Sequence record: NC_028831.1
DNA from: Escherichia phage slur01
Length of the DNA: 61,235 bases
Reading direction: 5' to 3' (one strand)
Shown here in pieces: positions 1-61,235 of the stretch; the stretch's first letter is position 1, and every line of letters begins with the position of its first letter. The notes under the pieces are model-generated. The model made no database searches. It was not told the DNA's origin and worked only from the letters and a program-made list of their open reading frames with translations. A program made the translations under genes and the position numbers.

Positions 1-127
1 CACAGGCATCCCAGGCTGCACGTCCGGACAACCTATAACCACACCATCGCAGGAACCGCCAAAGTGTCCGCCAGCTTCGCTGATACGGAACTGGTGTCCA
101 TTTTCGTCCTGCTGATAGACCTGCATA
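1..127. repeat. 127-bp terminal direct repeat, identical to 61109..61235 (circular permutation or assembly overlap)
   Basis: Bases 1..127 match the last 127 bases of the window exactly; a minus-strand ORF reads through the junction. Confidence 0.9.
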
Positions 128-15749: not shown

Positions 15750-15989
15750 ATGCGTTTAAAGTATAAGCAAAAGATTGTAGAATACTTCGGGATGCAACTT
15801 GTTGTCCCTGAATGGGTTAAATGGCTTGCTGTCGATGGTGATGGGGAGCTGTACGGTTACGAATGCGAGCCTGATATCTTAGTTGATGAACCGTGGGACG
15901 AATGGTACACAGAAGAAGGTAAATGTTACCGCATTACAGAAGTAGTTCTTGAAGAACATTGGTCTGAAACCTTAGTGGAGCTTTTCTAA
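15750..15989 (+). CDS. hypothetical protein, small paralog family member
   Basis: Shares W-x-AVDGDG...Y-x-x-x-P and W...TL motifs with 16333..16629 and 55631..55885. Confidence 0.55.
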   Translation: MRLKYKQKIVEYFGMQLVVPEWVKWLAVDGDGELYGYECEPDILVDEPWDEWYTEEGKCYRITEVVLEEHWSETLVELF

Positions 15990-19161: not shown

Positions 19162-19622
19162 CCACAATTGCGTTTGATGGAAAAGTATTAGCTGCGGACC
19201 GTGGAGTTATGCGCGGGGAAGCTGTGACTGCTTATAAGAAAGTTCATAGCGTGAATGGACATCGTGGACGGTTTTTACTGGGCTTGTGCGGCCTTACAGC
19301 ATTTACCGATCAGGTGTTGCGTTATTTTAATAGCGCGGAACCTGTTAAGTTCCCTGATATTAAACTTTACAGCAAAGATGATGATTACGGGCAAACTTGC
19401 GGTCTTGCTGTCACTCCGGAAGGTACTTGCCATTTTATTTATAATGATGGTACTTTGAGCGAGCCCATGCTGGATGGATGGGGGTCTGAGGGTAGCGGTT
19501 GTGTGTTTGCTGCTGGCGCGTTAGCTGCTGGTGCAAGTGCGAGCGAAGCTATTGAGTTGGCAATTAAACACACCACATGCGCATTCCTGGGAGTTGATAC
19601 AATATCATTTGAGGGTTTTTAA
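19158..19622 (+). CDS. HslV/proteasome-like Ntn-hydrolase peptidase homolog
   Basis: Starts MTTIAFDGKVLAADRGV (Thr directly after Met, as in HslV TTIV...); GWGSEGSGCVFAAGALAAG parallels the HslV GSGG segment. Confidence 0.5.
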   Translation: MTTIAFDGKVLAADRGVMRGEAVTAYKKVHSVNGHRGRFLLGLCGLTAFTDQVLRYFNSAEPVKFPDIKLYSKDDDYGQTCGLAVTPEGTCHFIYNDGTLSEPMLDGWGSEGSGCVFAAGALAAGASASEAIELAIKHTTCAFLGVDTISFEGF

Positions 19623-19623
19623 A

Positions 19624-20115
19624 ATGGAATGGTCTTCCATATTCACTTATTTGGATGGAAAGCTGTTCTGGAAAACTTCTAGAGGTGGTAGAGTTATACC
19701 AGGAGCACTTGCTGGTCATGCTACAAAGAGGGGTTACGTCAAAATACGATGCGGTTGTAGTTTCTATCTAAGGCATCGTATAGTATGGGAAATGCATAAT
19801 GGTTCCATTCCCGAAAATATGCAAATAGATCATATTAATCACGTTCCTGGAGATGATAGGATAGAGAATCTTAGATTAGTTACAAGTACATTAAATAATA
19901 GGAACGTAACCAGATCTAAGCTTAATAAGTCTGGTGTTACTGGTGTTTGCTATCACAAAAGAAATAAAAGATGGATAGCTTATATTAATACACAGGTCGG
20001 TCAAGTAAGACTTGGCTCTTTTATTAATTTTGAAGATGCTGTCAATGCTCGTAAAAATGCTGAGATTGTATATGAATACCACGAGAATCATGGAACTGAA
20101 CGTAAGAGTTTTTGA
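19624..20115 (+). CDS. HNH homing endonuclease with C-terminal AP2 domain
   Basis: HNH core HRIVWEMHNG...IDHINHVPGDDRIENL followed by AP2 segment SGVTGVCYHKRNKRWIAYI...GSFINFEDAVNARKNAE; start re-picked at ATG with GAGGG RBS. Confidence 0.75.
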   Translation: MEWSSIFTYLDGKLFWKTSRGGRVIPGALAGHATKRGYVKIRCGCSFYLRHRIVWEMHNGSIPENMQIDHINHVPGDDRIENLRLVTSTLNNRNVTRSKLNKSGVTGVCYHKRNKRWIAYINTQVGQVRLGSFINFEDAVNARKNAEIVYEYHENHGTERKSF

Positions 20116-21903: not shown

Positions 21904-22461
21904 ATGAACGGGGCAAGTCAAGAGCAATATGATCGTGACTGGACGAATTACATCCAGTATGCAAATAGCTTGTCCGCTGAAGAGATGGCAATACGTGACA
22001 AAGTTGTTGCTGAGTACATGTTCGACTACAATTGGACTAACGCTTGCATGAGATGCGGGTTCAATGCTATGTTTGCACAGGAGCTTGGCCAACGCTTTGC
22101 CACGGACTGTTATGTTCGATGGAAGCTCAAGGAGATTGAAAGATCCCGTGTTCAACGTACTTCTGAGCAAGCTAACATTGAAGCAGACCTTGAGCGTCAG
22201 CATATCATTGAAGCATTAAAACGTGAAGCTCATTATACAGGACCGGGATCTTCTCAAGCTGCTAGAGTCGCCGCATTGGGCAAGCTTGCACAAATTTATG
22301 ATTTGGATGCTCCCAAGAAGGCTAAGATTGATGTTACTAACAGAGGCGGCGTAATGATAGTCCCTGCTGTAGCAAATATTGACGAATGGGAAAAAACTGC
22401 ATCCGAGTCTCAACAACGACTAGTTAAAGAGACTGAAGATGGAGCTAAACCGACAACCTGA
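21904..22461 (+). CDS. Terminase small subunit
   Basis: 185-aa protein immediately upstream of the large terminase; RBS AAGGGGG. Confidence 0.55.
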   Translation: MNGASQEQYDRDWTNYIQYANSLSAEEMAIRDKVVAEYMFDYNWTNACMRCGFNAMFAQELGQRFATDCYVRWKLKEIERSRVQRTSEQANIEADLERQHIIEALKREAHYTGPGSSQAARVAALGKLAQIYDLDAPKKAKIDVTNRGGVMIVPAVANIDEWEKTASESQQRLVKETEDGAKPTT

Positions 22462-50529: not shown

Positions 50530-50756
50530 TAGCGGTCCTCGATTGCTCTAATTGTGGTTAAATCTAATTCACAGGTTGGAGGGTATCCATAAAGTCCAAT
50601 TTGTTTTCCTTGTGCATTAAACCATGTACCTGACGGATCCTGCCACTGCTTAGGTGTCTTGTGGAGAAATACTACTCTGTTTTCACCGTAATAATTAATT
50701 CTTACACCTGTGTGAGTATATTTACGTTTACCTTTTGGTCTTCTTAAGTTAGCCAT
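50529..50756 (-). CDS. hypothetical protein
   Basis: 75-aa basic ORF coupled between dpdA and the downstream gene. Confidence 0.45.
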   Translation of the reverse strand: MANLRRPKGKRKYTHTGVRINYYGENRVVFLHKTPKQWQDPSGTWFNAQGKQIGLYGYPPTCELDLTTIRAIEDR

Positions 50757-51676
50757 CAGAACAACTCCATTACACGATCACGGAATGTGCCGTCATGGGT
50801 GGCGTTAATGTTTGCAGCAATTACACCATACGCCCATAAGTTGAAGGCAGCACGTGATTCATAGATTGTTGATAAACGTTCGTAAGTGAAACCGTTTTGC
50901 TCAAGGTATTTAAGGACAGCGTCTTGTTCAATTTCAGTTAATGTTGAAACATGCTTACCAAAATGGTGGCGGTCCGGCGACTTATCTGATACGCGCATTG
51001 GGCCCCACGGAGGAGTAACCACACTTCCAAACGCTGCTGCTTGAATCCAGGAGGATGAGTCACAGCTATACCACGGATAACGCTCCATAATGGTTGTGGA
51101 CGTAATACCAAACGCATGAAGTTTAATCTTAGCACGTCCGCTACCGTCGCAAATATATTTGTCCCACATGCGGTCAAGCCAAGTTTTAAGCGTGTCTGTG
51201 GAACGCCCTACCATGCCACCGATGGTGATATATTCGTAGTTCTTCATGTAGTATTCAAGATAGCGGAAGTCCTCCCCAAAGTGAAAGCAAGGTAACGGTT
51301 TAGCACCGCGTGCTTCCATTTCAAGTTGGTTACGGTAGGTTTGCAACGGATCACCGATACCATCGAGCACCGACGCCATTACTGCGCCATCTTCTACGCG
51401 AAGGATGTCTTTGTTGCGCTTGATGTATTCGCAGTATTCAACAATATCAATGTGAGCACCTAACGAGTGCGCGGAGAATGCACCGGAGTCGAGAAACACT
51501 TTAGCCCCGTCCGCACGCATCTGATCGACATACTTCTGACGCCCAACGTAGTGGTATGATTCCAAAATATGGGGCAGATTGCGCGTGATATTTTTCTCAT
51601 GCTCAGACAGCTTTTCATAACGCTGCTGGCCAGGCATATAGCCGTTAGTATACACAGCCGCCATGAATACATTCAT
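50756..51676 (-). CDS. dpdA: DpdA-like DNA-guanine transglycosylase (TGT superfamily)
   Basis: 306 aa with FLDSGAF and ITIGGMVGRS segments, encoded next to the folE-queD-queC-queE cluster; RBS GGAGG. Confidence 0.6.
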   Translation of the reverse strand: MNVFMAAVYTNGYMPGQQRYEKLSEHEKNITRNLPHILESYHYVGRQKYVDQMRADGAKVFLDSGAFSAHSLGAHIDIVEYCEYIKRNKDILRVEDGAVMASVLDGIGDPLQTYRNQLEMEARGAKPLPCFHFGEDFRYLEYYMKNYEYITIGGMVGRSTDTLKTWLDRMWDKYICDGSGRAKIKLHAFGITSTTIMERYPWYSCDSSSWIQAAAFGSVVTPPWGPMRVSDKSPDRHHFGKHVSTLTEIEQDAVLKYLEQNGFTYERLSTIYESRAAFNLWAYGVIAANINATHDGTFRDRVMELF

Positions 51677-51697
51677 ATCTTAAATAAACCTCCAATG

Positions 51698-51736
51698 ACT
51701 AAAAAGCCCATACCAGTATTATGACCGATATGGGCT
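51698..51736 (-). terminator. Rho-independent terminator (minus strand)
   Basis: AGCCCATA...TATGGGCT hairpin followed by TTTTTAG on the minus strand, downstream of the HNH gene. Confidence 0.55.
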
Positions 51737-51755
51737 TGATCTGTAAAGCTATCTA

Positions 51756-52214
51756 TTATTTAAAATTAGCTTTCTTAGTTTCGCTAATTTTACGTTTGGT
51801 TTCCTCTGTATGATGTTTCCCGTACATTGGATTCAGTTCACCATATTTTTGATACATTGGGTTATCTTTCCCAAACCGTGGACGTGTCCTTGCCCTCCCT
51901 CTAACTTTCTTATCCAACCCGTTTTGTTTTTGATCTCCTAAATATAAATGATCTGGGTTAATGCAAGACGGATTATCACATGTATGCAGAACGCACCCTG
52001 TAGCGGAATCAGGTAAACCAATTTCTCCTTTGTACAGTTTATAGCTCTCGCGATGCGCAAAACTAAAAATTCGTTCACCTTTGGAACCACTAATCATTCT
52101 ACCGTAACCGTCTTTATCCTTACTACCAGTCCAGTTCCAGCAACCAGTAGAAGGGTCTATAACGTATTTGCTTAGTCTTTCGGACATCGGCTTTTTAGTA
52201 TAGACCCTTGGCAT
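51756..52214 (-). CDS. HNH homing endonuclease
   Basis: GCWNWTGSKDKDGYGRM and HTCDNPSCINPDHL HNH_3-type motifs; inserted between folE and dpdA. Confidence 0.75.
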   Translation of the reverse strand: MPRVYTKKPMSERLSKYVIDPSTGCWNWTGSKDKDGYGRMISGSKGERIFSFAHRESYKLYKGEIGLPDSATGCVLHTCDNPSCINPDHLYLGDQKQNGLDKKVRGRARTRPRFGKDNPMYQKYGELNPMYGKHHTEETKRKISETKKANFK

Positions 52215-52215
52215 A

Positions 52216-52875
52216 TTAACGAATCCGTTGATAATTAGTAGCAGATTCTAAAAATTCTTGGCGCCATTGTTTACCAATATCACTACCATGTTCCAGCTCT
52301 GTAGCTCCACGGAAAGCTTTCGTAATAGTGCTCGAGCCACAAACCTGCTTGATTCCTCTTGCCTCCATGCACATATGCTTAGCGTCAATATAAACACATA
52401 CAGCTTTCGGGTTTAAATGCTCCTGAATAGCGTCTGCAATCTGGTTAGTAAGACGTTCCTGAACTTGCAGTCGACGACTAAAAGCATCCACAACGCGAGA
52501 CAGCTTACTAAGCCCAACAATCTTCCCATTGGGGACATAACCAACAACAGCACGACCGATGATAGGAGCCATGTGATGCTCACAATGACTGTATACAGGA
52601 ATATCACGGACAATGACCATTTCATTGGTGTTTTCCGCCCCATCCTCAAAGGTTTTAAACAGTCCAGCAATATCTACATCATAGCCCCCGAACCACGTCT
52701 GGTATGCTTTAGCAACACGATATGGAGTCTCTTCCAAACCTGGACGTAATTCAATGCAATCTTCAATACGAGTTAGTAAAGTACGCACAGCTCGAGTAAT
52801 ATCAAATTGAGTAGCTTCGTTATCAATAGTAAATTTTGGCATGGTTTGCAGTTTCCTTGTTGTTAATGTGGTCAT
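52216..52875 (-). CDS. folE: GTP cyclohydrolase I
   Basis: Signature SHCEHHMAPI and HMCMEARG motifs. Confidence 0.9.
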   Translation of the reverse strand: MTTLTTRKLQTMPKFTIDNEATQFDITRAVRTLLTRIEDCIELRPGLEETPYRVAKAYQTWFGGYDVDIAGLFKTFEDGAENTNEMVIVRDIPVYSHCEHHMAPIIGRAVVGYVPNGKIVGLSKLSRVVDAFSRRLQVQERLTNQIADAIQEHLNPKAVCVYIDAKHMCMEARGIKQVCGSSTITKAFRGATELEHGSDIGKQWRQEFLESATNYQRIR

Positions 52876-52876
52876 A

Positions 52877-53371
52877 TTACAGGCTATAGTTTACGTGACA
52901 TTTCGAAGTTTCTTCGATGGTGCATTCTACAAGTTGAACACCATGTTCGTCAAGCAGTTGTGGCCCAATTACGTTGACCATATATGCAGCTAAGTTTTCC
53001 GCAGTTGGGTTGAATGGTAAAGATACCAATGAGCTTAAGAAATGCTCATGGTCTTCATGTTCCAGAGGACAACTCGGGCGACTTGCTGCAATTTTCAAAG
53101 CGTCAATCAAATTATCACGATTCCAATGCAGGAACTTATGATCCCAATTATCTTCCAACCACTGGCAGAGCGTAGTTTTAACCACACTGAAGTCGATAAC
53201 CCGCCCAACGTCGTCCAGCAAGTTACTATTGATTTCTTGAAACCCTTTTTTCGGCGCAACCTTAAAGTGAAACTTATAGTTGTGACCGTGAAGGTGACGA
53301 CACTTACTTTCATGACCCACAACGCGGTGACCAGCGCAAATTTCATGTGAACGAATTACTGTATAACTCAT
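52877..53371 (-). CDS. queD: 6-carboxy-5,6,7,8-tetrahydropterin synthase
   Basis: Zn-binding CxxxHGH pattern (CAGHRVVGHESKCRHLHGHNY); T-fold size. Confidence 0.85.
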   Translation of the reverse strand: MSYTVIRSHEICAGHRVVGHESKCRHLHGHNYKFHFKVAPKKGFQEINSNLLDDVGRVIDFSVVKTTLCQWLEDNWDHKFLHWNRDNLIDALKIAASRPSCPLEHEDHEHFLSSLVSLPFNPTAENLAAYMVNVIGPQLLDEHGVQLVECTIEETSKCHVNYSL

Positions 53372-53925
53372 TTTAATACCTCTTTAGACTGTTCAATTTC
53401 TAACGCACGCTGCGCCGACGCAATAATGTCTTTCAAATCTTCTACAAGACTTTTATGACCGCGTTCGCCAGGCTGCAACGCCTTTTTAATCAAATGTTGT
53501 AAAGCTGGGTTAGTTGTCTTCCAAGCTTCCAAGACATCATAGACGTCCACGATGCATTTTACAACATTCCCGTTTTGATCTTTACCATAAATAACTTTCT
53601 GATATTTATTCATGGGAATTTTAGACGGTTCGTATTTCATAAAAATTGCGGTTTTGTCAGTTCGCCAATTGGGTAAATTCCCTTCAATAGCTTGCTTGGC
53701 ATAATCCTCCGCAACGATATATCGCCAGGCTATAATATCTTGAATTTTATAAGGGCTATTCTCATCCATAGCTGAACGCCCTTCTACAGCCCAATCCCAT
53801 CCATCTAATAGATTCTTAACGTGTGTGCCGTTGCGCAAACGAACTTCAAACTTTTCATTGCGAAGAAAGATAGGCATTCCTTTCCCATCGTGCTGGTGCC
53901 AAATTTTATTCAAATTATCTTTCAT
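53368..53925 (-). CDS. hypothetical protein inside the 7-deazaguanine cluster
   Basis: 186 aa from the ATG 2 nt after the upstream stop; no recognised motif. Confidence 0.5.
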   Translation of the reverse strand: MKDNLNKIWHQHDGKGMPIFLRNEKFEVRLRNGTHVKNLLDGWDWAVEGRSAMDENSPYKIQDIIAWRYIVAEDYAKQAIEGNLPNWRTDKTAIFMKYEPSKIPMNKYQKVIYGKDQNGNVVKCIVDVYDVLEAWKTTNPALQHLIKKALQPGERGHKSLVEDLKDIIASAQRALEIEQSKEVLK

Positions 53926-53927
53926 TT

Positions 53928-54407
53928 TTACACTCTCGCTGTACGTGAATGAACTTCGTAAACAATCCAAAGGATAGCGGACGCTGTGAACTTACTTAAG
54001 CTCATTGCTACCATAGATCCTGGATTAACAATACCTATAATACTTAAGAACACAATGGAATCAATTGGTACAGCTACCAAAGAGCTGATAAATACACGTT
54101 GATGAAACGGCTTCTTAGTAATCGTGTATACCGCATAGTCCGCAAACTCGCTAAGAGCAAAGGATGCAACGGATGCAACTACAACCGCAGGATTACCGAA
54201 CACCCAGCTAAGGATGCAACCAACAATCATTGCCGGGATGACGCCTTTACCAGCGTTACGCTGTGCGTAATCACGCAGGACAAAGATAATGCCTACAAAG
54301 AAAGCCATCATTGGGACTACGCCAAGTGGCGTGTTAAGCATTGGAAGGTAGGAAAATCCCAGATTTACGAATATGATTGCAGCCAAGTAAGCAACGATAA
54401 ATTTCAT
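53928..54407 (-). CDS. Integral membrane protein, candidate queuosine-precursor transporter
   Basis: Four to five predicted TM helices; encoded inside the que cluster. Function is inferred from context only. Confidence 0.35.
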   Translation of the reverse strand: MKFIVAYLAAIIFVNLGFSYLPMLNTPLGVVPMMAFFVGIIFVLRDYAQRNAGKGVIPAMIVGCILSWVFGNPAVVVASVASFALSEFADYAVYTITKKPFHQRVFISSLVAVPIDSIVFLSIIGIVNPGSMVAMSLSKFTASAILWIVYEVHSRTARV

Positions 54408-54527
54408 ACTTTTGTTCTCCAGTTTTAACAGCGCTATTCGCTGGTTGTTGGGTTTAAAAGCTTTAGTAGTATAGTTGGGTTACCGCACCCTAAACAATGC
54501 GCTAGCGGTGCGGTTTTCGCGGTAAGA

Positions 54528-55235
54528 TCAAGCTTTGCTGATAAATTCGCTATAGCCTTTAGCGCGAAGTTTACACGCCGGGCATTCCCCGCAACCGTAT
54601 CCCCAGTCATGCAGAGTGCGACGGACGCCATTATAGCACGTATGGGACTGCTCAATTACTGTGGTTAAGAAACCAACCTTATCCGCCAGCTCAAACGTTT
54701 CTGCTTTATTTAAACGCATAAGCGGAGTAACAAAATGGATATCTGTTTCATATCCAACGTTTAATGTAGCTTCAAGAAGGTCTACAAACTGCTGACGGCA
54801 ATCCGGATAACCGCTATAGTCCGTTTCACAAACGCCCGTAACCACATATCGGGCTCCAACCTTCTGCGCGTAGGCGTGCGCGGTAGTCAGGAAAAGAGCA
54901 TTACGGTTGGGCACAAAGCTTGCCGGAAGGTTGTTGTGCTGTTCGTGATGTTCGTTAACATCACCTTCGTTCCCGATTAAAGCACTATTGCCGATCTGTT
55001 TCAAAGCAGGTAATTCAAAGACAACAAACGGGACATTGTGCTCTTTACAAATTTGATTAGCACAAGCCAGCTCAATGTTATGACGTTGACCGTATGCAAA
55101 ACCAATAGCGTACACCTTATCATAGTTATTAAGCGCAAGACCCAAACAGGTCACGCTGTCCTGGCCGCCAGACAGGACGACAACGGCGGAGTTATGATTT
55201 TTTACAGGGAATACCAGTTTATCTAATTTATTCAT
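54528..55235 (-). CDS. queC: 7-cyano-7-deazaguanine synthase
   Basis: PP-loop VLSGGQDS and C-terminal Zn motif CGECPAC; 235 aa with no amidotransferase fusion. Confidence 0.9.
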   Translation of the reverse strand: MNKLDKLVFPVKNHNSAVVVLSGGQDSVTCLGLALNNYDKVYAIGFAYGQRHNIELACANQICKEHNVPFVVFELPALKQIGNSALIGNEGDVNEHHEQHNNLPASFVPNRNALFLTTAHAYAQKVGARYVVTGVCETDYSGYPDCRQQFVDLLEATLNVGYETDIHFVTPLMRLNKAETFELADKVGFLTTVIEQSHTCYNGVRRTLHDWGYGCGECPACKLRAKGYSEFISKA

Positions 55236-55236
55236 T

Positions 55237-55425
55237 TTAGAAACCTTTAAGGCTAATATTAAGGTTAATGACTACTTGTTCAACTACAGCTTCAGAGGTT
55301 ACCTGACGCTGGTGTATCTCAAGCTCCGTATGTATTTTCTTGGATGCAGCACGACAAATAGCGTCATTCAACTCGTCTTGTAAACGTTGAATTTTCTGCA
55401 TAAGGATTACAGTTTCTTCATTCAT
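55237..55425 (-). CDS. hypothetical small protein in the que cluster
   Basis: 62-aa ORF between queC and queE. Confidence 0.4.
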   Translation of the reverse strand: MNEETVILMQKIQRLQDELNDAICRAASKKIHTELEIHQRQVTSEAVVEQVVINLNISLKGF

Positions 55426-55630
55426 TTACTTCACCTTTAATATCACAAGGGTTGATTGTTACGTTAGACATTACAATTGGATGATTGCGCGCTCCAATTG
55501 TGCTAACGTGATTAATATCTAATTCTACATGCACGCCCTGCATAGTAGCGTGAGCAATTGAAGAATTAAGTTTTTCTACCAGCTCAGTAATCATTTCCTG
55601 ATGCTGTTTCGCTTCTTCCAAAGTGATCAT
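55418..55630 (-). CDS. hypothetical small protein in the que cluster
   Basis: 70-aa ORF; shares a loose pattern (hydrophobic-H-x-EL-x-I-x-H...V-x-x-N-x-x-I) with 55237..55425. Confidence 0.4.
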   Translation of the reverse strand: MITLEEAKQHQEMITELVEKLNSSIAHATMQGVHVELDINHVSTIGARNHPIVMSNVTINPCDIKGEVNE

Positions 55631-55885
55631 TTAAACCTCCGTTAATGTTTGAGTCCAGTCTAAGCCTTCAAGATCTACATCAGCTATTTCATCGTACTCG
55701 TAAGCTTCCGGATCTGCTGGCAACCATCTATCAAAGCGATGGCTAAGTTCTGGAGGAATTGCTTCATACCCCCAAACCTTCCCATCCTTGTCGGCTGCCA
55801 GATAATCAACTCGACTTGGAACGGTTAAAGTGACACCACAAAAATTAACATCTTTAGTATGCACAACCTGGCTTAACACACGCAT
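55631..55885 (-). CDS. hypothetical protein, small paralog family member
   Basis: YLAADKDGKVWGYEAIPPE...DLEGLDWTQTL matches the family at 15750..15989 and 16333..16629. Confidence 0.5.
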   Translation of the reverse strand: MRVLSQVVHTKDVNFCGVTLTVPSRVDYLAADKDGKVWGYEAIPPELSHRFDRWLPADPEAYEYDEIADVDLEGLDWTQTLTEV

Positions 55886-56592
55886 TATTCCACTCCGATA
55901 TATTTGTGAACCTGAAGCTGCAACGTGTAACCGTGTTTCATACAGCTTTGGACAACGGCTTGGATATTACTGTGGTTAAGGTCTTCATCCTGCTCGTCCA
56001 TTGGCTGTAAATATATCTTACCCTTGAAACCCTTCGGAGGTCTAGCGATAAATGGCGTAGCTTGATGATCTAATGCCTGAAGCGGCAAACCATCTTCCAC
56101 GTTTACACAGCACGCTTTAAGTACATATTTAAATGCATTAGCGCGGCGCAGCACAGAAGGATGAATCTTTGAGGTCTTGGGACTACATACAATTACAGGT
56201 AACTGGGAAAAGTTCTTAGGTAAAGGCATAGACCCATTAGTTTCAATTTGCACCAAATACCCGCGCGATAACAGTTGTTCAATAAACGGGTTAATTTGCT
56301 GACGGAACGGTTCACCCCCAGTGATAACCACAAGTGAGGTGCTATTACCTGATTCCAGCTTACGGCTTTCGATTAAACGCATAATATCGACAATATGATA
56401 AAGACTACGACCAACAGTATAATCCGTATCACAGCCAGGACATTGCAGGTTGCACCCAGCAAGACGCACAAATACAGCAGGTTGTCCGCAGAATGGACCT
56501 TCACCCTGAATGGTAGAGAATACCGAATGCACGTCTAAATACATATCGTTTTCTTTAGAACGAGACTCGGGAGCTTGTTGATTAATATTCAT
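55885..56592 (-). CDS. queE: 7-carboxy-7-deazaguanine synthase (radical SAM)
   Basis: Radical-SAM cluster motif CNLQCPGC; 235 aa; coupled to the downstream gene. Confidence 0.85.
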   Translation of the reverse strand: MNINQQAPESRSKENDMYLDVHSVFSTIQGEGPFCGQPAVFVRLAGCNLQCPGCDTDYTVGRSLYHIVDIMRLIESRKLESGNSTSLVVITGGEPFRQQINPFIEQLLSRGYLVQIETNGSMPLPKNFSQLPVIVCSPKTSKIHPSVLRRANAFKYVLKACCVNVEDGLPLQALDHQATPFIARPPKGFKGKIYLQPMDEQDEDLNHSNIQAVVQSCMKHGYTLQLQVHKYIGVE

Positions 56593-56606: not shown

Positions 56607-56634
56607 TGAAAAAGAAAGCGCCTCATTGGGCGCT
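56607..56634 (-). terminator. Rho-independent terminator (minus strand)
   Basis: AAGCGCC-TCATT-GGCGCTT hairpin followed by CTTTTTC on the minus strand. Confidence 0.6.
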
Positions 56635-56661
56635 TTCATTATAACGTGATATGTTTTGATA

Positions 56662-58146: not shown

Positions 58147-60123
58147 TTAGAAAGGAACGTAATCCGGATCGTCTACTTGCACAGGGTTAACCACATTGTT
58201 CACCGTTATACCTTGCGTATTCTGCGAAACAATATCGTCCCAACTTACATCATCGTTATAGCTCGGACCTTCTGTTGTTCCATCCTGACCGTATACTTTA
58301 ACCTGAATAGCTTCGTCGTCCTGTGGAGCTTCAAACTTACCGAAACAAGTACCGTCATAATCATAGTTCAATATCTCAGGCCATTTCTTATTGGTATGAA
58401 CTTTGATGTATTTTGGTGTTTTAAGCATTGCAGCAACATCAAGAGCTTCTTCAATAGTTTGTGGTAAAGGTAAATGTGTCCTTTTCTTCCACCATGCGAC
58501 AGCTTTACGACCTGCCCAGTCCCCATGAAGCAGAGCTACCCATTCACTGAATATTTTACTACCGCAATAATAAGTCACCTTCATTGTTGGAGGTTTAGAG
58601 CTGTCATTGCGTTTAGTATGCTTTGCATAAGTAACATGCGTAACTTTGAAGTCTTCAACTACTGGAATATCCTGCTTGATCAGGGCTTCCGTACTTGCAG
58701 CTTTCTTGAGTTTGGTCTGGAACTTAAACTCATGACCGCAAAAGCCTTCTTTAACGTAATCCGTCCCGCGTAGCCTAAATCCTTTCAGATATAATTGTTG
58801 AACTTGTTCCTGTGTGACGCTGTCCATTGGGATTGGTGCGAAGCCACCGCAATAGCGAGCGGATGCATGATTATACGACCCACATACATCGCATTCTTTA
58901 ACCGGAGCAGTGCCAGCACCTTTTTCGCCCGGGCGCTTGGGTTTAACAGGGTCGTTAATAGGGCCCAAACGGCGCGTATTACCGCTGAAATCCAGTACAA
59001 GGCAGTTCTGCTTGGGGCTTGCCGCAATAGCTTGTAAGCGTCCCTCCTGCGTGGAAAGATCAAAGCCCTCCGCGTACACCGGACGCGTACCGCGACCCAG
59101 CATCTGAACCCATAGCACCGCCGACGCAGTGGGACGGAGCATGATAATTAAGTCCAGCATTGGATGATCAAAACCTGTGGTTAAGACGTTATTGTTAGTT
59201 AATGCTCGAAATTCACCGCGCTTGAATTTTTCAATAATCTCGTCACGTTCTTTTGCATCAAGCTTAGAGTGAATACATCCACAGCTAATACCCATATCGT
59301 TCAGCATATCGCACGCGTCTTTAGCGTGTTCAATGCCAGAACAAAATATAAGCCAGCTTTGACGGTCTTCACCACATTCAATTGCTTCCTCAAGTGCGCG
59401 GAGTGTTGCGTCATCGCGGTTTACCGCACTTTGCAGCTCACTCTGAATAAATTCACCGCCGCGTTTACCTACCCCGTTGAGGTCTAGTTCCATCTTAGTA
59501 CGCTTTGGCACAACCGGAAGAAGATAACCTTGTTCCAGAAACCAGTTGAAGGCTTCCGGAGTAGTTGCATCAAACGTTACCTTATCAAATAACGCATCAT
59601 CGTCTTCGTTTTCCTTAACAATTGAACCATACCCCAGTCGATAAGGTGTAGCAGTAAGACCGATGATTTTTAAGTAAGGGTTAACTTCACGCAACGCTGC
59701 AAAGAACTTCTTATACATTGTTGCATCACGCGGACTAATAAGATGCGCTTCGTCCACAAAAATAAGATCAACTTTGCCGAACTTTTTCGGATGCTTAGCA
59801 ACGGACGCAATTCCTGCAAAGGTAATAAGATTGTAGACTTCTTTACGCTTCAAACCCGCGCTGTAAATACCTGCTGGCGCTTCGGGCCAGACTTTCATTA
59901 ATTTATCATAGTTTTGTGCAATTAACTCTTTGACGTGAGTTAACATCATTACGCGCTGGTTTGGATACCATTTGTAAAGCAGATCGAGGAACCCCGCGAT
60001 AACGAGCGATTTTCCTGTCCCTGTTGGTAACAGGATCAAAGGGTTCCCCGCGTTACCCTTTTCAGCATCAAAATAGCGGAATACGCTATAAACTGCTTCC
60101 TGTTGATAATCTCTTAATTTCAT
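58147..60123 (-). CDS. Superfamily-2 DEAH-box DNA helicase with C-terminal extension
   Basis: Walker A LLPTGTGKS, DEAH box FVDEAHLIS, motif III GLTATPYR, motif VI QMLGRGTR; about 250 extra C-terminal residues with Cys cluster CDVCGSYNHASARYCGG. Confidence 0.85.
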   Translation of the reverse strand: MKLRDYQQEAVYSVFRYFDAEKGNAGNPLILLPTGTGKSLVIAGFLDLLYKWYPNQRVMMLTHVKELIAQNYDKLMKVWPEAPAGIYSAGLKRKEVYNLITFAGIASVAKHPKKFGKVDLIFVDEAHLISPRDATMYKKFFAALREVNPYLKIIGLTATPYRLGYGSIVKENEDDDALFDKVTFDATTPEAFNWFLEQGYLLPVVPKRTKMELDLNGVGKRGGEFIQSELQSAVNRDDATLRALEEAIECGEDRQSWLIFCSGIEHAKDACDMLNDMGISCGCIHSKLDAKERDEIIEKFKRGEFRALTNNNVLTTGFDHPMLDLIIMLRPTASAVLWVQMLGRGTRPVYAEGFDLSTQEGRLQAIAASPKQNCLVLDFSGNTRRLGPINDPVKPKRPGEKGAGTAPVKECDVCGSYNHASARYCGGFAPIPMDSVTQEQVQQLYLKGFRLRGTDYVKEGFCGHEFKFQTKLKKAASTEALIKQDIPVVEDFKVTHVTYAKHTKRNDSSKPPTMKVTYYCGSKIFSEWVALLHGDWAGRKAVAWWKKRTHLPLPQTIEEALDVAAMLKTPKYIKVHTNKKWPEILNYDYDGTCFGKFEAPQDDEAIQVKVYGQDGTTEGPSYNDDVSWDDIVSQNTQGITVNNVVNPVQVDDPDYVPF

Positions 60124-60626
60124 AAAGGTCTCACTGTTCCATGATTCTTGTTAAACCCGTATGTAATTTCAGCCTCTTTTCTTGTCTTTATTGCGTCTTG
60201 TAGACTTTCAAAATAACCAAGATGCAGCCGAATACCGTATACATCAATTTGAGCTTTCCATTTCTTATTTGCCTTAGCCCATGTCACTCCAGGACAACCG
60301 CTCTTATTATTCGATGGTAGTTTTCTATTATGGTTGTTATGGTATTTATTACTTTTATTTAGATTAGTTTTCCAATTATGCGTACCATCACCATCATCAT
60401 GATCAATATATTCAGGTTCTTCATCATAGAGCATTTTCCAGATTATACGGTGTGCGTAATAATTAAGACCGTTCATAAAAACCATAATATAGGTTTTACC
60501 ATGATTAAAAGTAACTTCACTCCCTGCAATTTGACCGTTATGGTTCCAAAATAAGTTACCGCTATCTTCGCTATAGCTAAAAATCCTATTGAGTTCTTCT
60601 TGCGTCGGTAACGGCAACCTTTTCAT
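60120..60626 (-). CDS. HNH homing endonuclease with C-terminal AP2 domain
   Basis: HNH segment HRIIWKMLYDEEP...IDHDDGDGTHNW and AP2 segment SGCPGVTWAKANKKWKAQIDVYGIRLHLGYFESLQDA; start at ATG (track uses a TTG at 60632). Confidence 0.7.
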   Translation of the reverse strand: MKRLPLPTQEELNRIFSYSEDSGNLFWNHNGQIAGSEVTFNHGKTYIMVFMNGLNYYAHRIIWKMLYDEEPEYIDHDDGDGTHNWKTNLNKSNKYHNNHNRKLPSNNKSGCPGVTWAKANKKWKAQIDVYGIRLHLGYFESLQDAIKTRKEAEITYGFNKNHGTVRPL

Positions 60627-60628
60627 AA

Positions 60629-61235
60629 TCAATCTTTCCCGTAATAATTAGCTACTTGATAGTTTTGACAACCAACTTTCTGTCCTTGCGTATCCACTGC
60701 GGCGGAATGGAAATTGCAATACCATGTTCCATCTTCTTTTGGTTCAAGGAATTGACATGTGCGGCAGTTTACTTCCGGCATAGTTTTACGCCAGCATAGT
60801 GAGGAGTGATCGCACCATTTACATTCGAAGAAAGTGGAATCTTTAAATGCGCGGTCCGGAATATCTGTAGCAATAGCAATCTGCACACCACGATCAATAT
60901 ACATGTCCGCGGTAACAGGATCAAACGGAATAATTTCTGCGTAAACTTCATCGTCATTCTTGTTTACAGCAAGATATAACGCTGCGCCAAGACCTAGTTT
61001 TCGCATGTACACGTTCATCTGTACATAGTGCTCAGGTTTGGCTTCTTTAACACCTTTAGCTTTCAGCTTTTTAAAAGACTTATCGTTATGCGTCTTCATT
61101 TCGGTGAGCACAGGCATCCCAGGCTGCACGTCCGGACAACCTATAACCACACCATCGCAGGAACCGCCAAAGTGTCCGCCAGCTTCGCTGATACGGAACT
61201 GGTGTCCATTTTCGTCCTGCTGATAGACCTGCATA
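60629..61235 (-). CDS. 3' part of the YqaJ/lambda-Exo-like PD-(D/E)xK exonuclease (5' part at 1..429 across the junction)
   Basis: In frame with the 1..429 segment through the terminal repeat; C-terminal Cys cluster CKWC...CWRK...CRTC; total about 302 aa. Confidence 0.7.
   Translation of the reverse strand, partial: MQVYQQDENGHQFRISEAGGHFGGSCDGVVIGCPDVQPGMPVLTEMKTHNDKSFKKLKAKGVKEAKPEHYVQMNVYMRKLGLGAALYLAVNKNDDEVYAEIIPFDPVTADMYIDRGVQIAIATDIPDRAFKDSTFFECKWCDHSSLCWRKTMPEVNCRTCQFLEPKEDGTWYCNFHSAAVDTQGQKVGCQNYQVANYYGKD
61109..61235. repeat. 127-bp terminal direct repeat, identical to 1..127
   Basis: Exact identity with the first 127 bases of the window. Confidence 0.9.

What the first reader, a model, noticed from the sequence alone, without database searches (positions are those of the whole stretch)
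50756..56592. Phage-encoded 7-deazaguanine DNA hypermodification module (dpdA-folE-queD-queC-queE)
Four enzymes that convert GTP to preQ0 (FolE, QueD, QueE, QueC) are recognisable by catalytic motifs, clustered with a TGT-like DpdA homolog on the same strand next to the replication genes. In phages this pathway is known to insert 7-deazaguanines into genomic DNA as anti-restriction protection. QueC here is unfused (no amidotransferase domain), so the simplest prediction is a dPreQ0-type modification, but five unassigned ORFs sit inside the cluster.
Basis: partly seen in the sequence, partly recalled or inferred. Interest (0 to 1): 0.85.

Follow-up and report, generated by a model that had tools for sequence, protein, structure and literature searches.

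The report
Known phage dPreQ0 DNA-modification gene cluster
This is the well-studied gene cluster that Seuratvirus phages of E. coli use to replace about a third of the guanines in their DNA with the base preQ0 to evade restriction enzymes; its key enzyme is identical in protein sequence to the tested one from phage CAjan, so the finding is correct but ordinary.

Summary
On the minus strand, 50756-56592 encodes DpdA, FolE, QueD, an unfused QueC and QueE.

The window is a complete, circularly permuted Seuratvirus (Queuovirinae) genome. About 89% of it aligns with E. coli phage CAjan, mostly at 95-99% nucleotide identity.

DpdA and QueE are 100% identical in protein sequence to those of CAjan, and QueC is 97.9% identical. 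For CAjan, dPreQ0 at about 32% of G, loss of modification on dpdA deletion, reduced modification on folE or queC deletion, GA/GGC target motifs and restriction protection are all published.

Corrections to the finding:
- Six ORFs, not five, lie inside the cluster.
- Two of them can be assigned: a YhhQ-like putative preQ0 transporter, and an HNH/NUMOD3 homing endonuclease.
- The endonuclease is specific to this genome. It is inserted two codons before the folE stop and gives FolE a new tail.
- The other four (185, 62, 70 and 84 aa) remain unknown. Three of them are also in CAjan, whose DNA contains only dPreQ0.

A high-confidence AlphaFold model of DpdA matches only tRNA-guanine transglycosylases in the PDB. 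DpdA nevertheless lacks a Pfam TGT match and the zinc motif.

No experiment can be run here, so the presence of dPreQ0 in this phage's DNA is inferred.

The parts
50756..51676 (-). dpdA: DNA-guanine transglycosylase of the phage DpdA1 type, 306 aa. It is predicted to exchange G for preQ0 in double-stranded DNA.
   Evidence: 100% protein identity to CAjan DpdA, with 32 nucleotide differences that are all synonymous. The published pocket and catalytic residues D63, S64, F67, D105, H132, G153, G154, F189 and D206 are all present. In 78 diverse homologs H187, S204 and D206 are invariant, and D63, S64, D105, H132, G153, G154 and F189 are at least 90% conserved. The AlphaFold2 model has pLDDT 96.6. 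The top 50 Foldseek PDB hits are all TGTs; the best is 1j2b_A at E 3e-7.
51701..51737 (-). Hairpin with a 14-bp stem followed by a T-run, lying between the folE/HNH stop and dpdA. It looks like an intrinsic terminator that separates dpdA from the upstream que genes.
   Evidence: Sequence AAGCCCATATCGGT-CATAAT-ACTGGTATGGGCTT-TTT. An 84-nt stretch containing it folds at -25.9 kcal/mol. It is conserved at 97-99% in the relatives. The record of phage SA80RD annotates a terminator and a promoter under the matched 116-nt stretch that contains it. Function is inferred only.
51756..52214 (-). Free-standing HNH/NUMOD3 homing endonuclease gene (152 aa). It is specific to this genome and is inserted two codons before the original folE stop.
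   Evidence: Pfam NUMOD3 33.8 bits against a cut-off of 20.4; phrog_1872 E 4.5e-40; motif HTCDNPSCINPDHL at residue 77. No DNA match in 50,697 phage records beyond the conserved flank. The best phage protein homolog is 38.7% identical. The junction was read directly: the ORF ends in the ancestral folE 'AAA TAA'.
52216..52875 (-). folE: GTP cyclohydrolase I, 219 aa. The tail ...EFLESATNYQRIR replaces the ...EFLEACK of relatives.
   Evidence: Pfam PF01227 E 7.8e-63; TIGR00063 191.7 bits against 181.6; CEHH at residue 98. 82-92% protein identity to CAjan, WildeMaa and SLUR75 over residues 1-211.
52877..53371 (-). queD: 6-carboxytetrahydropterin synthase, 164 aa.
   Evidence: Pfam PTPS E 1.4e-23, 83.6 bits against 22.4. 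TIGR03367 QueD scores 67.7 bits, below its equivalog cut-off of 89.25. CRHLHGH at residue 24. 74-85% identity to relatives.
53368..53925 (-). orf185, of unknown function. The ATG start at 53925 is the likely one; the listed TTG start at 53970 would give 200 aa.
   Evidence: phrog_23361 E 1e-111, with the match starting at residue 16 of the 200-aa form. No Pfam, NCBIfam or PDB sequence match. The C-terminal 55-80 aa module occurs in 670 phage records, most from genera (for example Salmonella siphophages) for which no 7-deazaguanine genes are known to me; I did not check their gene content. It also occurs in the JenP1 (Nonagvirus) cluster gene between queE and gat-queC. 55% identity to CAjan gp40.
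53928..54407 (-). yhhQ-like membrane protein, 159 aa; putative preQ0 transporter.
   Evidence: Pfam Vut_1 26.8 bits against a cut-off of 27.2; TIGR00697 21.9 bits against 50.95; phrog_4899 E 4e-48; several hydrophobic segments. 96.8% identical to the CAjan homolog, whose deletion left modification unchanged.
54528..55235 (-). queC: 7-cyano-7-deazaguanine (preQ0) synthase, 235 aa, unfused.
   Evidence: Pfam QueC E 7.2e-75 over residues 17-230; TIGR00364 243.1 bits against 150.3; SGGQDS at residue 22 and CGECPAC at residue 215. 97.9% identical to CAjan QueC, and 100% to SLUR75.
55237..55425 (-). orf62, a small protein of unknown function.
   Evidence: phrog_24420 E 2.6e-44. Present in CAjan at 85% identity. 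Weakly similar to orf70: 38% over 26 aa, E 6e-5.
55418..55630 (-). orf70, a small protein of unknown function. The 'radical SAM' label it carries in some records has no support.
   Evidence: phrog_26258 E 4.9e-51. No Pfam hit apart from noise. 94% identical to CAjan gp44.
55631..55885 (-). orf84, a small protein of unknown function. It is absent from CAjan.
   Evidence: phrog_1972 E 1.3e-22. Present in WildeMaa and SLUR75, absent from CAjan. It has a paralog elsewhere in the window at 15750-15989 (37% identity, E 1e-11).
55885..56592 (-). queE: 7-carboxy-7-deazaguanine synthase (radical SAM), 235 aa.
   Evidence: 100% protein identity to CAjan QueE. phrog_2076 E 5.9e-69. The five best NCBIfam hits are QueE models, at E 5.7e-28 to 1.8e-20, all below their equivalog cut-offs. 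CNLQCPGC at residue 47.
56614..56637 (-). Terminator-like hairpin upstream of queE, with a promoter-like site at 56667-56638. It is a possible 5' boundary of the que transcription unit.
   Evidence: Consensus scan only.

Best explanation
The region is the 7-deazaguanine DNA-modification module of a Seuratvirus phage.

Proposed mechanism:
1. During infection, FolE, QueD, QueE and QueC convert GTP, through H2NTP, CPH4 and CDG, into the free base preQ0.
2. DpdA, a divergent member of the tRNA-guanine transglycosylase fold, excises guanine from phage double-stranded DNA after replication and inserts preQ0 in its place. Asp206 acts as the nucleophile and Asp63 as the general base.
3. Because this DpdA has the same protein sequence as the CAjan enzyme, the targets should be the G of GA and the first G of GGC. 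Those sites make up 28.4% of all G in this genome.
4. The resulting dPreQ0 blocks many type I and type II restriction enzymes.

Roles of the other ORFs:
- The YhhQ-like protein may salvage preQ0 but is dispensable.
- The HNH gene is a selfish insertion.
- The four small or unknown ORFs are not needed to explain the chemistry.

What is shown here: gene identities, catalytic residues, the fold, and identity to the tested CAjan proteins. What is inferred: that this phage's DNA actually carries dPreQ0, at which sites, and that it protects against restriction.
For: - HMM assignments for all five enzymes.
- Protein identity to CAjan: DpdA 100%, QueE 100%, QueC 97.9%, YhhQ-like 96.8%. The 32 nucleotide differences in dpdA are all synonymous.
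- About 89% of the window aligns with CAjan, mostly at 95-99% nucleotide identity, and the gene order is the same.
- Published CAjan data: 70,628 dPreQ0 per 10^6 nt, about 32% of G, with other deazaguanines below 6 per 10^6; none in the dpdA deletion mutant, which also becomes sensitive to restriction (PMC6884629).
- Deletions of folE, queC and dpdA abolish or strongly reduce modification, a yhhQ deletion does not, and the motifs are GA and GGC (PMC7544227).
- GA plus GGC sites account for 28.4% of G in the window and 28.1% in CAjan.
- All published pocket and catalytic residues are present, and they are conserved across 78 homologs at 29-65% identity.
- The AlphaFold2 model has pLDDT 96.6, and its top 50 PDB matches are all TGTs.
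- The best PDB sequence match for the family profile is bacterial DpdA, 7ui4_A, across the GGMV and S-x-D-S motifs, at a marginal E of 0.056.
- No amidotransferase, QueF or other tailoring domain was found in QueC or in the six largest ORFs that the window has and CAjan lacks outside the cluster and the tail-fibre region.
- BASEL Seuratvirus phages with this module resist type I and II restriction-modification systems in vivo (PMC8594841).
Against: - Nothing was measured for this genome.
- FolE has an altered C-terminal tail because of the endonuclease insertion, and FolE and QueD are only 74-92% identical to those of tested or annotated relatives. Pathway flux could therefore differ.
- orf84 and the divergent orf185 are not covered by the CAjan experiments.
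- QueE and QueD score below NCBIfam's strict equivalog cut-offs.
- GA plus GGC sites predict 28% of G, slightly less than the 32% measured in CAjan, so the motif rule is not exact.
Confidence: 0.93

Rival explanations
1. The module yields a derivative other than dPreQ0, such as dADG, dG+, dPreQ1 or a further tailored base, because one of the unassigned ORFs (orf185, orf62, orf70 or orf84) is an unrecognised tailoring enzyme.
For: Four ORFs inside the cluster have no recognisable family. orf84 is absent from CAjan, and orf185 is only 55% identical to its CAjan counterpart. New tailoring enzymes (DpdL, DpdM, DpdN) were found in other phages as recently as 2023 (PMC10516641).
Against: CAjan has orf62, orf70 and an orf185 homolog, yet contains only dPreQ0. 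orf84 has a paralog far from the cluster and belongs to a broad phage family, phrog_1972. The conserved module of orf185 is spread over 670 phage records of many genera, most of them genera for which no deazaguanine genes are known to me; I did not check their gene content. The three small ORFs, at 62-84 aa, are too small for the known tailoring enzyme families.
Confidence: 0.04
2. The genes serve RNA rather than DNA: they boost preQ0 supply for queuosine in host tRNA, and the DpdA-like protein is a tRNA-guanine transglycosylase.
For: Older database annotations call the protein 'queuosine tRNA-ribosyltransferase'. The fold is that of TGT.
Against: The protein sequence is identical to CAjan DpdA, whose deletion removes dPreQ0 from DNA. 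There is no Pfam TGT match at E<=10 for this protein, and none at E<=0.01 for 78 relatives. It lacks the CxCxxC zinc motif and the C-terminal domains of TGT and arcTGT, being 306 aa against about 375-580 aa. The genome has no tRNA genes and no queF, queA or queG.
Confidence: 0.02
3. The module is partly crippled in this particular genome. The endonuclease insertion altered the FolE C-terminus, and perhaps transcription into dpdA, so modification is lower and depends on the host FolE or host preQ0.
For: The last two residues of FolE are replaced by eight new ones, and a 459-nt gene now sits between folE and the terminator. CAjan folE and queC deletion mutants still incorporate some host-derived preQ0, about 12-fold less.
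Against: The Pfam GTP cyclohydrolase I domain (residues 27-195) and the CEHH and HMC motifs are intact. The replaced tail lies outside the conserved domain. From my own recollection of the sequence, E. coli FolE also has a longer tail there. All other genes are intact and nearly identical to functional ones. The terminator hairpin and the dpdA ribosome-binding region are unchanged.
Confidence: 0.05

Closest known systems
Escherichia phage CAjan (Seuratvirus cajan) dPreQ0 module: dpdA-folE-queD-yhhQ-queC-queE (Hutinet et al. 2019, PMC6884629; Kot et al. 2020, PMC7544227)
   Same: Same gene order and strand, and the same position between the DNA polymerase/clamp genes and the helicase gene. Protein identity: DpdA 100%, QueE 100%, QueC 97.9%, YhhQ-like 96.8%. 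orf62 and orf70 are also shared. GA plus GGC site density is essentially the same (28.4% against 28.1% of G).
   Different: FolE is 82% and QueD 74% identical. orf185 is 55% identical. CAjan lacks orf84 and the HNH gene, and it has two small ORFs that the window lacks (gp36 between dpdA and folE, and gp39 after queD). FolE in the window has a new C-terminal tail.
Other Seuratvirus genomes (SLUR75, SLUR76, SLUR26, WildeMaa/Bas23, Greed, Seurat, and others), annotated as encoding dPreQ0
   Same: 92-96% nucleotide identity over 78-92% of the 6.2-kb region. SLUR75 has 100% identical DpdA, QueC, QueE and orf84.
   Different: None of the 50,697 phage records carries the HNH gene at the folE 3' end. 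Most have a small hypothetical ORF between dpdA and folE that is missing here, as it also is in SA80RD.
Nonagvirus phages (9g, JenP1): dG+ (2'-deoxyarchaeosine) module with Gat-QueC
   Same: Same subfamily (Queuovirinae) and the same core. Identity to JenP1: DpdA 68%, FolE 75%, QueD 73%, QueE 64%. JenP1 also has a cluster gene that carries the C-terminal module of orf185.
   Different: Nonagvirus has a 471-aa Gat-QueC fusion, whose QueC part is only 28.6% identical, and it makes dG+. It has no yhhQ-like gene and no orf62, orf70 or orf84.
Bacterial Dpd system (DpdA/DpdB/DpdC, Salmonella Montevideo; PDB 7ui4) and tRNA-guanine transglycosylases (TGT, arcTGT)
   Same: TIM-barrel transglycosylase fold with the catalytic Asp pair and a preQ0 pocket. 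The reaction is base exchange of G for preQ0.
   Different: Only 10-16% sequence identity. NCBIfam bacterial DpdA scores 16.9 bits against a cut-off of 200. There is no Pfam TGT hit, no zinc subdomain, and no DpdB or DpdC partners. The substrate is phage DNA modified at about 30% of G, against less than 0.1% for bacterial DpdA.

Membership tests
Phage DpdA + preQ0-pathway DNA modification system, dPreQ0 (CAjan/Seuratvirus) type | A DpdA1-type DNA transglycosylase with the catalytic Asp pair and the preQ0/guanine pocket | tested here: met
   100% protein identity to CAjan DpdA. D63, S64, F67, D105, H132, G153, G154, F189 and D206 are present and conserved in 78 homologs. phrog_887 E 8.2e-96.
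Phage DpdA + preQ0-pathway DNA modification system, dPreQ0 (CAjan/Seuratvirus) type | A complete GTP-to-preQ0 pathway encoded by the phage (FolE, QueD, QueE, QueC) | tested here: met
   FolE and QueC pass curated Pfam and NCBIfam cut-offs. QueD passes the Pfam PTPS cut-off. The best NCBIfam hits for QueE are all QueE models (below equivalog cut-offs), and QueE is 100% identical to the CAjan protein. All catalytic motifs are present.
Phage DpdA + preQ0-pathway DNA modification system, dPreQ0 (CAjan/Seuratvirus) type | No enzyme that converts preQ0 further (Gat-QueC, ArcS, QueF/QueF-L, DpdC, DpdL/M/N) | tested here: met
   The QueC domain covers residues 17-230 of 235 aa, leaving no room for a Gat domain. 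Every segment of 60 nt or more that has no CAjan counterpart was located, and the six largest ORFs in those segments outside the cluster and the tail-fibre region were scanned with Pfam. They gave only an HNH/AP2 endonuclease, a DnaD-N/HTH-like protein and no match for the other four. The remainder matches CAjan, which makes only dPreQ0. A completely novel enzyme cannot be excluded.
Phage DpdA + preQ0-pathway DNA modification system, dPreQ0 (CAjan/Seuratvirus) type | dPreQ0 actually present in virion DNA and dependent on dpdA | not testable with these tools
   Needs LC-MS/MS or nanopore data. It is known only for CAjan.
Phage DpdA + preQ0-pathway DNA modification system, dPreQ0 (CAjan/Seuratvirus) type | Protection of the phage DNA from restriction enzymes | not testable with these tools
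   Shown for CAjan in vitro and for BASEL Seuratvirus phages in vivo, but not for this genome.
Canonical tRNA-guanine transglycosylase (Pfam TGT PF01702; bacterial TGT, arcTGT) | Sequence match to the TGT family model | tested here: not met
   No Pfam hit for this protein at E<=10. None of 78 diverse relatives hits TGT at E<=0.01. No PDB sequence match with the single sequence or the shallow profile.
Canonical tRNA-guanine transglycosylase (Pfam TGT PF01702; bacterial TGT, arcTGT) | The TGT TIM-barrel fold | tested here: met
   AlphaFold2 model with pLDDT 96.6 and pTM 0.92. All top 50 Foldseek PDB hits are TGTs. The best is arcTGT 1j2b_A at E 3e-7, probability 1.00, TM-score 0.53 normalised to the query.
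Canonical tRNA-guanine transglycosylase (Pfam TGT PF01702; bacterial TGT, arcTGT) | The zinc-binding CxCxxC...H subdomain and C-terminal RNA-binding parts | tested here: not met
   No CxCxxC motif in the 306-aa protein. It is 60-270 residues shorter than the matched TGT chains. That this motif defines TGT is from my own knowledge of the family.
Bacterial Dpd restriction-modification system (DpdA-K) | A bacterial DpdA equivalog together with the DpdB ATPase and DpdC | tested here: not met
   NF041059 DpdA scores 16.9 bits against a cut-off of 200. The best profile match in the PDB is 7ui4_A, but only at E 0.056. No dpdB- or dpdC-like genes are present in the phage genome.
YhhQ / COG1738 queuosine-precursor transporter | A match to the family model above its curated cut-off, and a polytopic membrane protein | tested here: inconclusive
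   Pfam Vut_1 scores 26.8 bits against 27.2, and TIGR00697 scores 21.9 against 50.95. The match covers only part of the profile, and the protein is 159 aa. Several hydrophobic segments are present. Transport has not been tested, and the CAjan deletion has no phenotype.
Free-standing HNH homing endonuclease | An HNH catalytic motif with a DNA-binding NUMOD module, and presence/absence polymorphism between otherwise conserved flanks | tested here: met
   NUMOD3 scores 33.8 bits, above its 20.4 cut-off. HNH_3 and zf-His_Me_endon score below their cut-offs, but the motif HTCDNPSCINPDHL is present and phrog_1872 gives E 4.5e-40. The gene is absent from all related genomes, whose flanks are 97-99% identical. 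Cleavage activity has not been tested.

The most novel reading that the evidence does not exclude
The most novel reading not excluded is that one or more of the conserved unknown ORFs inside the cluster has a real role in the modification system. Candidates are orf185, whose C-terminal module also sits inside the Nonagvirus dG+ cluster, and the tandem pair orf62/orf70. Possible roles include steering DpdA to GA/GGC sites, coupling it to replication, or shielding host tRNA or DNA. None of these ORFs has been deleted in any published study that I read. A smaller novelty is the homing endonuclease, which spread into a genome where about 30% of G is dPreQ0 and so presumably cleaves modified DNA or acts before modification.
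Probability: 0.1. Interest if true: 0.45.

Novelty: already known. Interest (0 to 1): 0.12.

Why it matters
7-Deazaguanine DNA modification is a real and important anti-restriction strategy. It is relevant to phage therapy host range and to sequencing or cloning of phage DNA.

For this lineage, however, it has already been shown chemically, genetically and at motif resolution. This window adds only another Seuratvirus genome with the same module.

Practical points:
- The DNA of this phage should be expected to resist many type I and II restriction enzymes.
- It should give lowered nanopore basecalling quality, as was seen for modified CAjan DNA.
- It should remain sensitive to type III systems, as reported for its relatives.

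The only new details are the homing endonuclease inserted at the folE 3' end and, among distant homologs, inteins that split DpdA next to its catalytic aspartate.

Tried and rejected
1. The single DpdA sequence against Pfam (E<=10) and against PDB sequences gave nothing. A shallow profile (A1: 30 sequences at 68-75% identity) against PDB also gave nothing relevant.
2. AlphaFold2 with the shallow alignment A1 gave a poor model (pLDDT 60.2). Its Foldseek search returned only generic TIM barrels at E>=0.04, and I discarded that result. I then rebuilt the alignment from 50%-identity cluster representatives (A2), which gave pLDDT 96.6 and clean TGT matches.
3. I tested transitive homology by scanning 78 DpdA relatives against Pfam TGT. 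There were no hits, so the link to TGT rests on fold and on the marginal 7ui4 match, not on Pfam.
4. I considered that the HNH gene might lie in a group I intron in folE. I rejected this because there is no Rfam match anywhere in the window at gathering thresholds. In addition, the 459-nt ORF fills all but about 30 nt of the roughly 490-nt inserted segment, and those 30 nt encode the new folE tail and stop.
5. I looked for tRNA genes that might point to an RNA role. There are none.
6. I tried to assign orf185, orf62, orf70 and orf84 with Pfam at E<=10, NCBIfam, PHROGs, PDB sequences and the 5.8-billion-protein search. I got only unnamed phage families and no precomputed Pfam domains. Both structure-prediction jobs went to DpdA, so none of these four was folded.
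7. I searched the held literature for inteins in DpdA and found no relevant paper.

Full report
OBSERVATION

On the minus strand, the ORF list shows a tight array running from 50756 to 56592:

| Gene | Coordinates | Length |
|---|---|---|
| dpdA | 50756-51676 | 306 aa |
| HNH ORF | 51756-52214 | 152 aa |
| folE | 52216-52875 | 219 aa |
| queD | 52877-53371 | 164 aa |
| unknown ORF | 53368-53925 (or to 53970) | 185 or 200 aa |
| yhhQ-like | 53928-54407 | 159 aa |
| queC | 54528-55235 | 235 aa |
| orf62 | 55237-55425 | 62 aa |
| orf70 | 55418-55630 | 70 aa |
| orf84 | 55631-55885 | 84 aa |
| queE | 55885-56592 | 235 aa |

The stated limits are exactly the dpdA stop and the queE start.

The profile searches leave no doubt about the enzymes:
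- FolE: Pfam E 7.8e-63, and TIGR00063 above its cut-off.
- QueD: Pfam PTPS E 1.4e-23.
- QueC: Pfam E 7.2e-75 over residues 17-230, and TIGR00364 243 bits against a cut-off of 150.
- QueE: the five best NCBIfam hits are all QueE models, and phrog_2076 gives E 5.9e-69.
- DpdA: phrog_887 E 8.2e-96.

The catalytic motifs can be read directly: CEHH (FolE residue 98), CRHLHGH (QueD 24), SGGQDS and CGECPAC (QueC 22 and 215), CNLQCPGC (QueE 47) and SCDSSS (DpdA 204). QueC has no room for an amidotransferase domain. The replication genes flank the cluster on the same strand: polymerase and clamp downstream of dpdA, and helicase upstream of queE. The only correction is that six ORFs, not five, lie between the pathway genes.

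WHAT THE WINDOW IS

megablast against 50,697 phage records finds 25 genomes that cover at least 80% of the 6.2-kb region. Nearly all are E. coli phages, the three I opened are classified in the genus Seuratvirus (subfamily Queuovirinae), and the identities are 91-96%. The rest of the window matches the same genomes.

A local blastn comparison with CAjan covers 54,579 of 61,235 bases, mostly at 95-99% identity. It also shows that the window is circularly permuted relative to CAjan. The first 127 bases are identical to the last 127. The window is therefore a complete genome of 61,108 bp with an assembly overlap.

IDENTITY TO THE CHARACTERISED SYSTEM

Protein identity to CAjan:

| Protein | Identity to CAjan |
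|---|---|
| DpdA | 100% (306/306) |
| QueE | 100% |
| QueC | 97.9% |
| YhhQ-like | 96.8% |
| FolE | 82% |
| QueD | 74% |

The dpdA genes differ at 32 nucleotide positions, all of them synonymous. FolE and QueD are closer to those of other Seuratvirus phages (92% and 85% to SLUR75). The middle of the cluster is therefore mosaic while its ends are nearly invariant.

For CAjan the chemistry and genetics are published:
- LC-MS/MS found 70,628 dPreQ0 per 10^6 nt, about 32% of G, with dADG, dG+, dPreQ1 and dQ all below 6 per 10^6.
- A dpdA deletion has no deazaguanine at all, and its DNA becomes fully cleavable (PMC6884629).
- Deletions of folE and queC strongly reduce modification; a residual, roughly 12-fold lower level comes from host preQ0. 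A yhhQ deletion has no effect.
- The modified sites are the G of GA and of GGC (PMC7544227).
- All nine residues that the same paper proposes for the pocket and for catalysis are present here, necessarily so since the proteins are identical.
- GA plus GGC sites make up 28.4% of G in this genome and 28.1% in CAjan.
- The BASEL study treats dPreQ0 as the signature of Seuratvirus. It reports that these phages resist type I and II restriction-modification systems in vivo but remain sensitive to type III systems (PMC8594841).

INDEPENDENT TEST OF THE DPDA FOLD

Sequence methods alone do not connect this protein to TGT:
- There is no Pfam hit at E<=10.
- There is no PDB sequence hit.
- None of 78 relatives hits Pfam TGT.
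- The NCBIfam bacterial DpdA model gives 16.9 bits against a cut-off of 200.

A first AlphaFold2 run with 30 close homologs failed (pLDDT 60), and its fold search was uninformative. I then searched the 1.84-billion representative library with the family profile (6,463 hits at E<=0.001) and aligned 77 representatives at 29-65% identity with the query. H187, S204 and D206 are invariant. D63, S64, D105, H132, G153, G154 and F189 are at least 90% conserved.

With this alignment the model reached pLDDT 96.6 and pTM 0.92. All 50 best Foldseek matches in the PDB are tRNA-guanine transglycosylases, led by archaeosine TGT 1j2b_A (E 3e-7, 16% identity). The best PDB sequence match of the deeper profile is the solved bacterial 'DNA-guanine transglycosylase' 7ui4_A. 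It aligns the GGMV and S-x-D-S motifs, at a marginal E of 0.056.

The protein therefore has the TGT fold and active site. It is not a canonical TGT: it is short (306 aa), has no CxCxxC zinc motif, and the genome encodes no tRNA.

THE ORFS INSIDE THE CLUSTER

(a) The HNH ORF at 51756-52214
- It is an HNH/NUMOD3 endonuclease: NUMOD3 scores above its cut-off, phrog_1872 gives E 4.5e-40, and the motif HTCDNPSCINPDHL is present.
- Relatives match the window up to position 51765 and again from about 52260. No phage record contains the intervening DNA. The best protein homologs, in Pseudomonas and Aeromonas phages, are only 38-39% identical.
- Reading the junction shows the following. Relatives end FolE with ...EFLEACK-stop, followed by a conserved hairpin. 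In the window FolE ends ...EFLESATNYQRIR-stop. One base later the endonuclease ORF starts, and it finishes in the ancestral 'AAA TAA'.
- This is a free-standing homing endonuclease gene inserted two codons before the folE stop, and it supplies a substitute tail. Nothing in Rfam matches, so an intron is unlikely.
- The conserved GTP cyclohydrolase domain (residues 27-195) is untouched.

(b) The yhhQ-like ORF at 53928-54407
- It is a short, divergent YhhQ/Vut_1-like membrane protein, just under the Pfam cut-off.
- It is dispensable in CAjan.

(c) orf185
- It belongs to phrog_23361, and nothing else matches.
- Its C-terminal 55-80 residues form a module found in 670 phage records of many genera, most from genera for which no deazaguanine genes are known to me; I did not check their gene content.
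- The module is also present in the gene between queE and gat-queC in the Nonagvirus phage JenP1.

(d) orf62 and orf70
- They are adjacent, weakly similar small proteins.
- Both are present in CAjan.

(e) orf84
- It is absent from CAjan but present in SLUR75 and WildeMaa.
- It has a 37%-identical paralog at 15750-15989, outside the cluster.

None of these ORFs looks like a known tailoring enzyme. The Pfam scan of the six largest ORFs that the window has and CAjan lacks outside the cluster and the tail-fibre region gave only an HNH/AP2 endonuclease, a DnaD-N/HTH-like protein and no match for the other four.

MECHANISM

Shown here:
- the gene set and its motifs
- the TGT-like fold
- sequence identity to proteins whose deletion phenotypes are published

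Inferred:
- In infected cells FolE, QueD, QueE and QueC make preQ0 from GTP.
- DpdA then exchanges G for preQ0 in double-stranded phage DNA after replication, at GA and GGC.
- This gives about 28-32% dPreQ0 and resistance to many restriction enzymes.

A 14-bp hairpin with a T-run at 51701-51737 separates the que genes from dpdA. Another hairpin, at 56614-56637, lies upstream of queE. These suggest transcription-unit boundaries but prove nothing.

RIVALS

- A different end product made by an unrecognised enzyme (about 4%).
- A tRNA role (about 2%).
- A partly disabled pathway caused by the insertion in folE (about 5%; this one is compatible with the main explanation).

The evidence for and against each is set out under the rival explanations.

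COMPARISON AND NOVELTY

The module belongs to the CAjan/Seuratvirus dPreQ0 system by every criterion that sequence can test.

It differs from the Nonagvirus dG+ module by having a stand-alone QueC. That QueC is only 28.6% identical to the QueC part of JenP1 Gat-QueC, although the other enzymes are 64-75% identical. This points to gene replacement rather than simple domain addition.

It is not a member of the bacterial Dpd system or of the canonical TGT family, although it shares their fold and reaction type.

The finding is correct but already known. I score interest at 0.12.

SIDE OBSERVATIONS

- The genome carries two further HNH-type ORFs that CAjan lacks, at 19531-20115 and 60120-60632.
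- The lateral tail-fibre region 40863-43609 has no DNA match in CAjan.
- Among distant DpdA homologs, which are not in the window, six proteins of 535-637 aa carry canonical inteins. Each has Cys as the first intein residue, ends in ...GN, and is followed by Ser at position +1. The insertion lies between the residues equivalent to Y203 and S204, two residues before the catalytic Asp. I found no paper in the held library that describes this.

Noticed in passing
window 1-127 and 61109-61235: The first and last 127 bases are identical. The window is a complete, circularly permuted Seuratvirus genome of 61,108 bp with an assembly overlap. Window position 21904 corresponds to CAjan position 1.
   Followed up: yes
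window 51756-52259: A homing endonuclease gene (HNH/NUMOD3, 152 aa) is inserted two codons before the folE stop. It gives FolE a new 8-residue tail and itself ends in the ancestral folE 'AAA TAA'. It is absent from all 50,697 phage records searched, and the nearest protein homologs are 38-39% identical.
   Followed up: yes
window 19531-20115 (+) and 60120-60632 (-): Two more endonuclease-like ORFs that CAjan lacks. The first hits Pfam HNH_3 (E 1.8e-19) with a weak AP2 match. The second has no Pfam hit but resembles it by eye, with an HNH-like HDDGDGTHN motif and an AP2-like tail. This genome therefore carries at least three mobile endonuclease insertions relative to CAjan.
   Followed up: partly
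window 55631-55885 (-) and 15750-15989 (+): orf84 inside the que cluster has a 37%-identical paralog (79 aa) in the early-gene region. Both fall in DNA that has no CAjan counterpart. This argues that orf84 is a general small accessory gene, not a modification gene.
   Followed up: partly
window 55237-55630 (-): orf62 and orf70 overlap by 8 nt and are weakly similar to each other (38% over 26 aa, E 6e-5), so they may be a tandem duplicate. The 'radical SAM domain-containing protein' label on the CAjan orf70 homolog (gp44) has no support in Pfam.
   Followed up: partly
window 53368-53925 (-); L006 4488-5249 (JenP1 gp37): The C-terminal 55-80 aa of orf185 is a conserved module, up to about 79% identical in the protein-database hits, joined to variable N-termini. 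It matches 670 phage records and about 970 protein-database entries, with no Pfam family. A gene carrying it also sits inside the Nonagvirus dG+ cluster. Its function is unknown.
   Followed up: partly
P0242, P0248, P0257, P0266, P0303, P0274 (DpdA homologs from metagenomes, not in the window): Six DpdA-family proteins carry an intein of about 310-320 aa (Cys as first residue, ending ...GN, then Ser at +1) inserted between the equivalents of Y203 and S204, two residues before the catalytic Asp206. One has a weak LAGLIDADG hit. No paper in the held library mentions inteins in DpdA.
   Followed up: partly
window 52216-53925 compared with 50756-51676 and 54528-56592: The cluster is mosaic. DpdA, QueC and QueE are 98-100% identical to CAjan, but FolE is 82%, QueD 74% and orf185 55%, and these three are closer to SLUR75 or WildeMaa. 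This implies recombination within the module.
   Followed up: partly
L006 5251-6666 (JenP1 gat-queC) compared with window 54528-55235: The QueC part of Nonagvirus Gat-QueC is only 28.6% identical to the Seuratvirus QueC, while the other module enzymes are 64-75% identical. The dPreQ0/dG+ difference between the two genera therefore looks like a gene replacement, not a domain added to the same QueC.
   Followed up: partly
window 40863-43609 (+): The central and C-terminal part of the 1032-aa lateral tail-fibre ORF (40519-43617) has no DNA match in CAjan. This is the usual host-range variable region of these phages.
   Followed up: no
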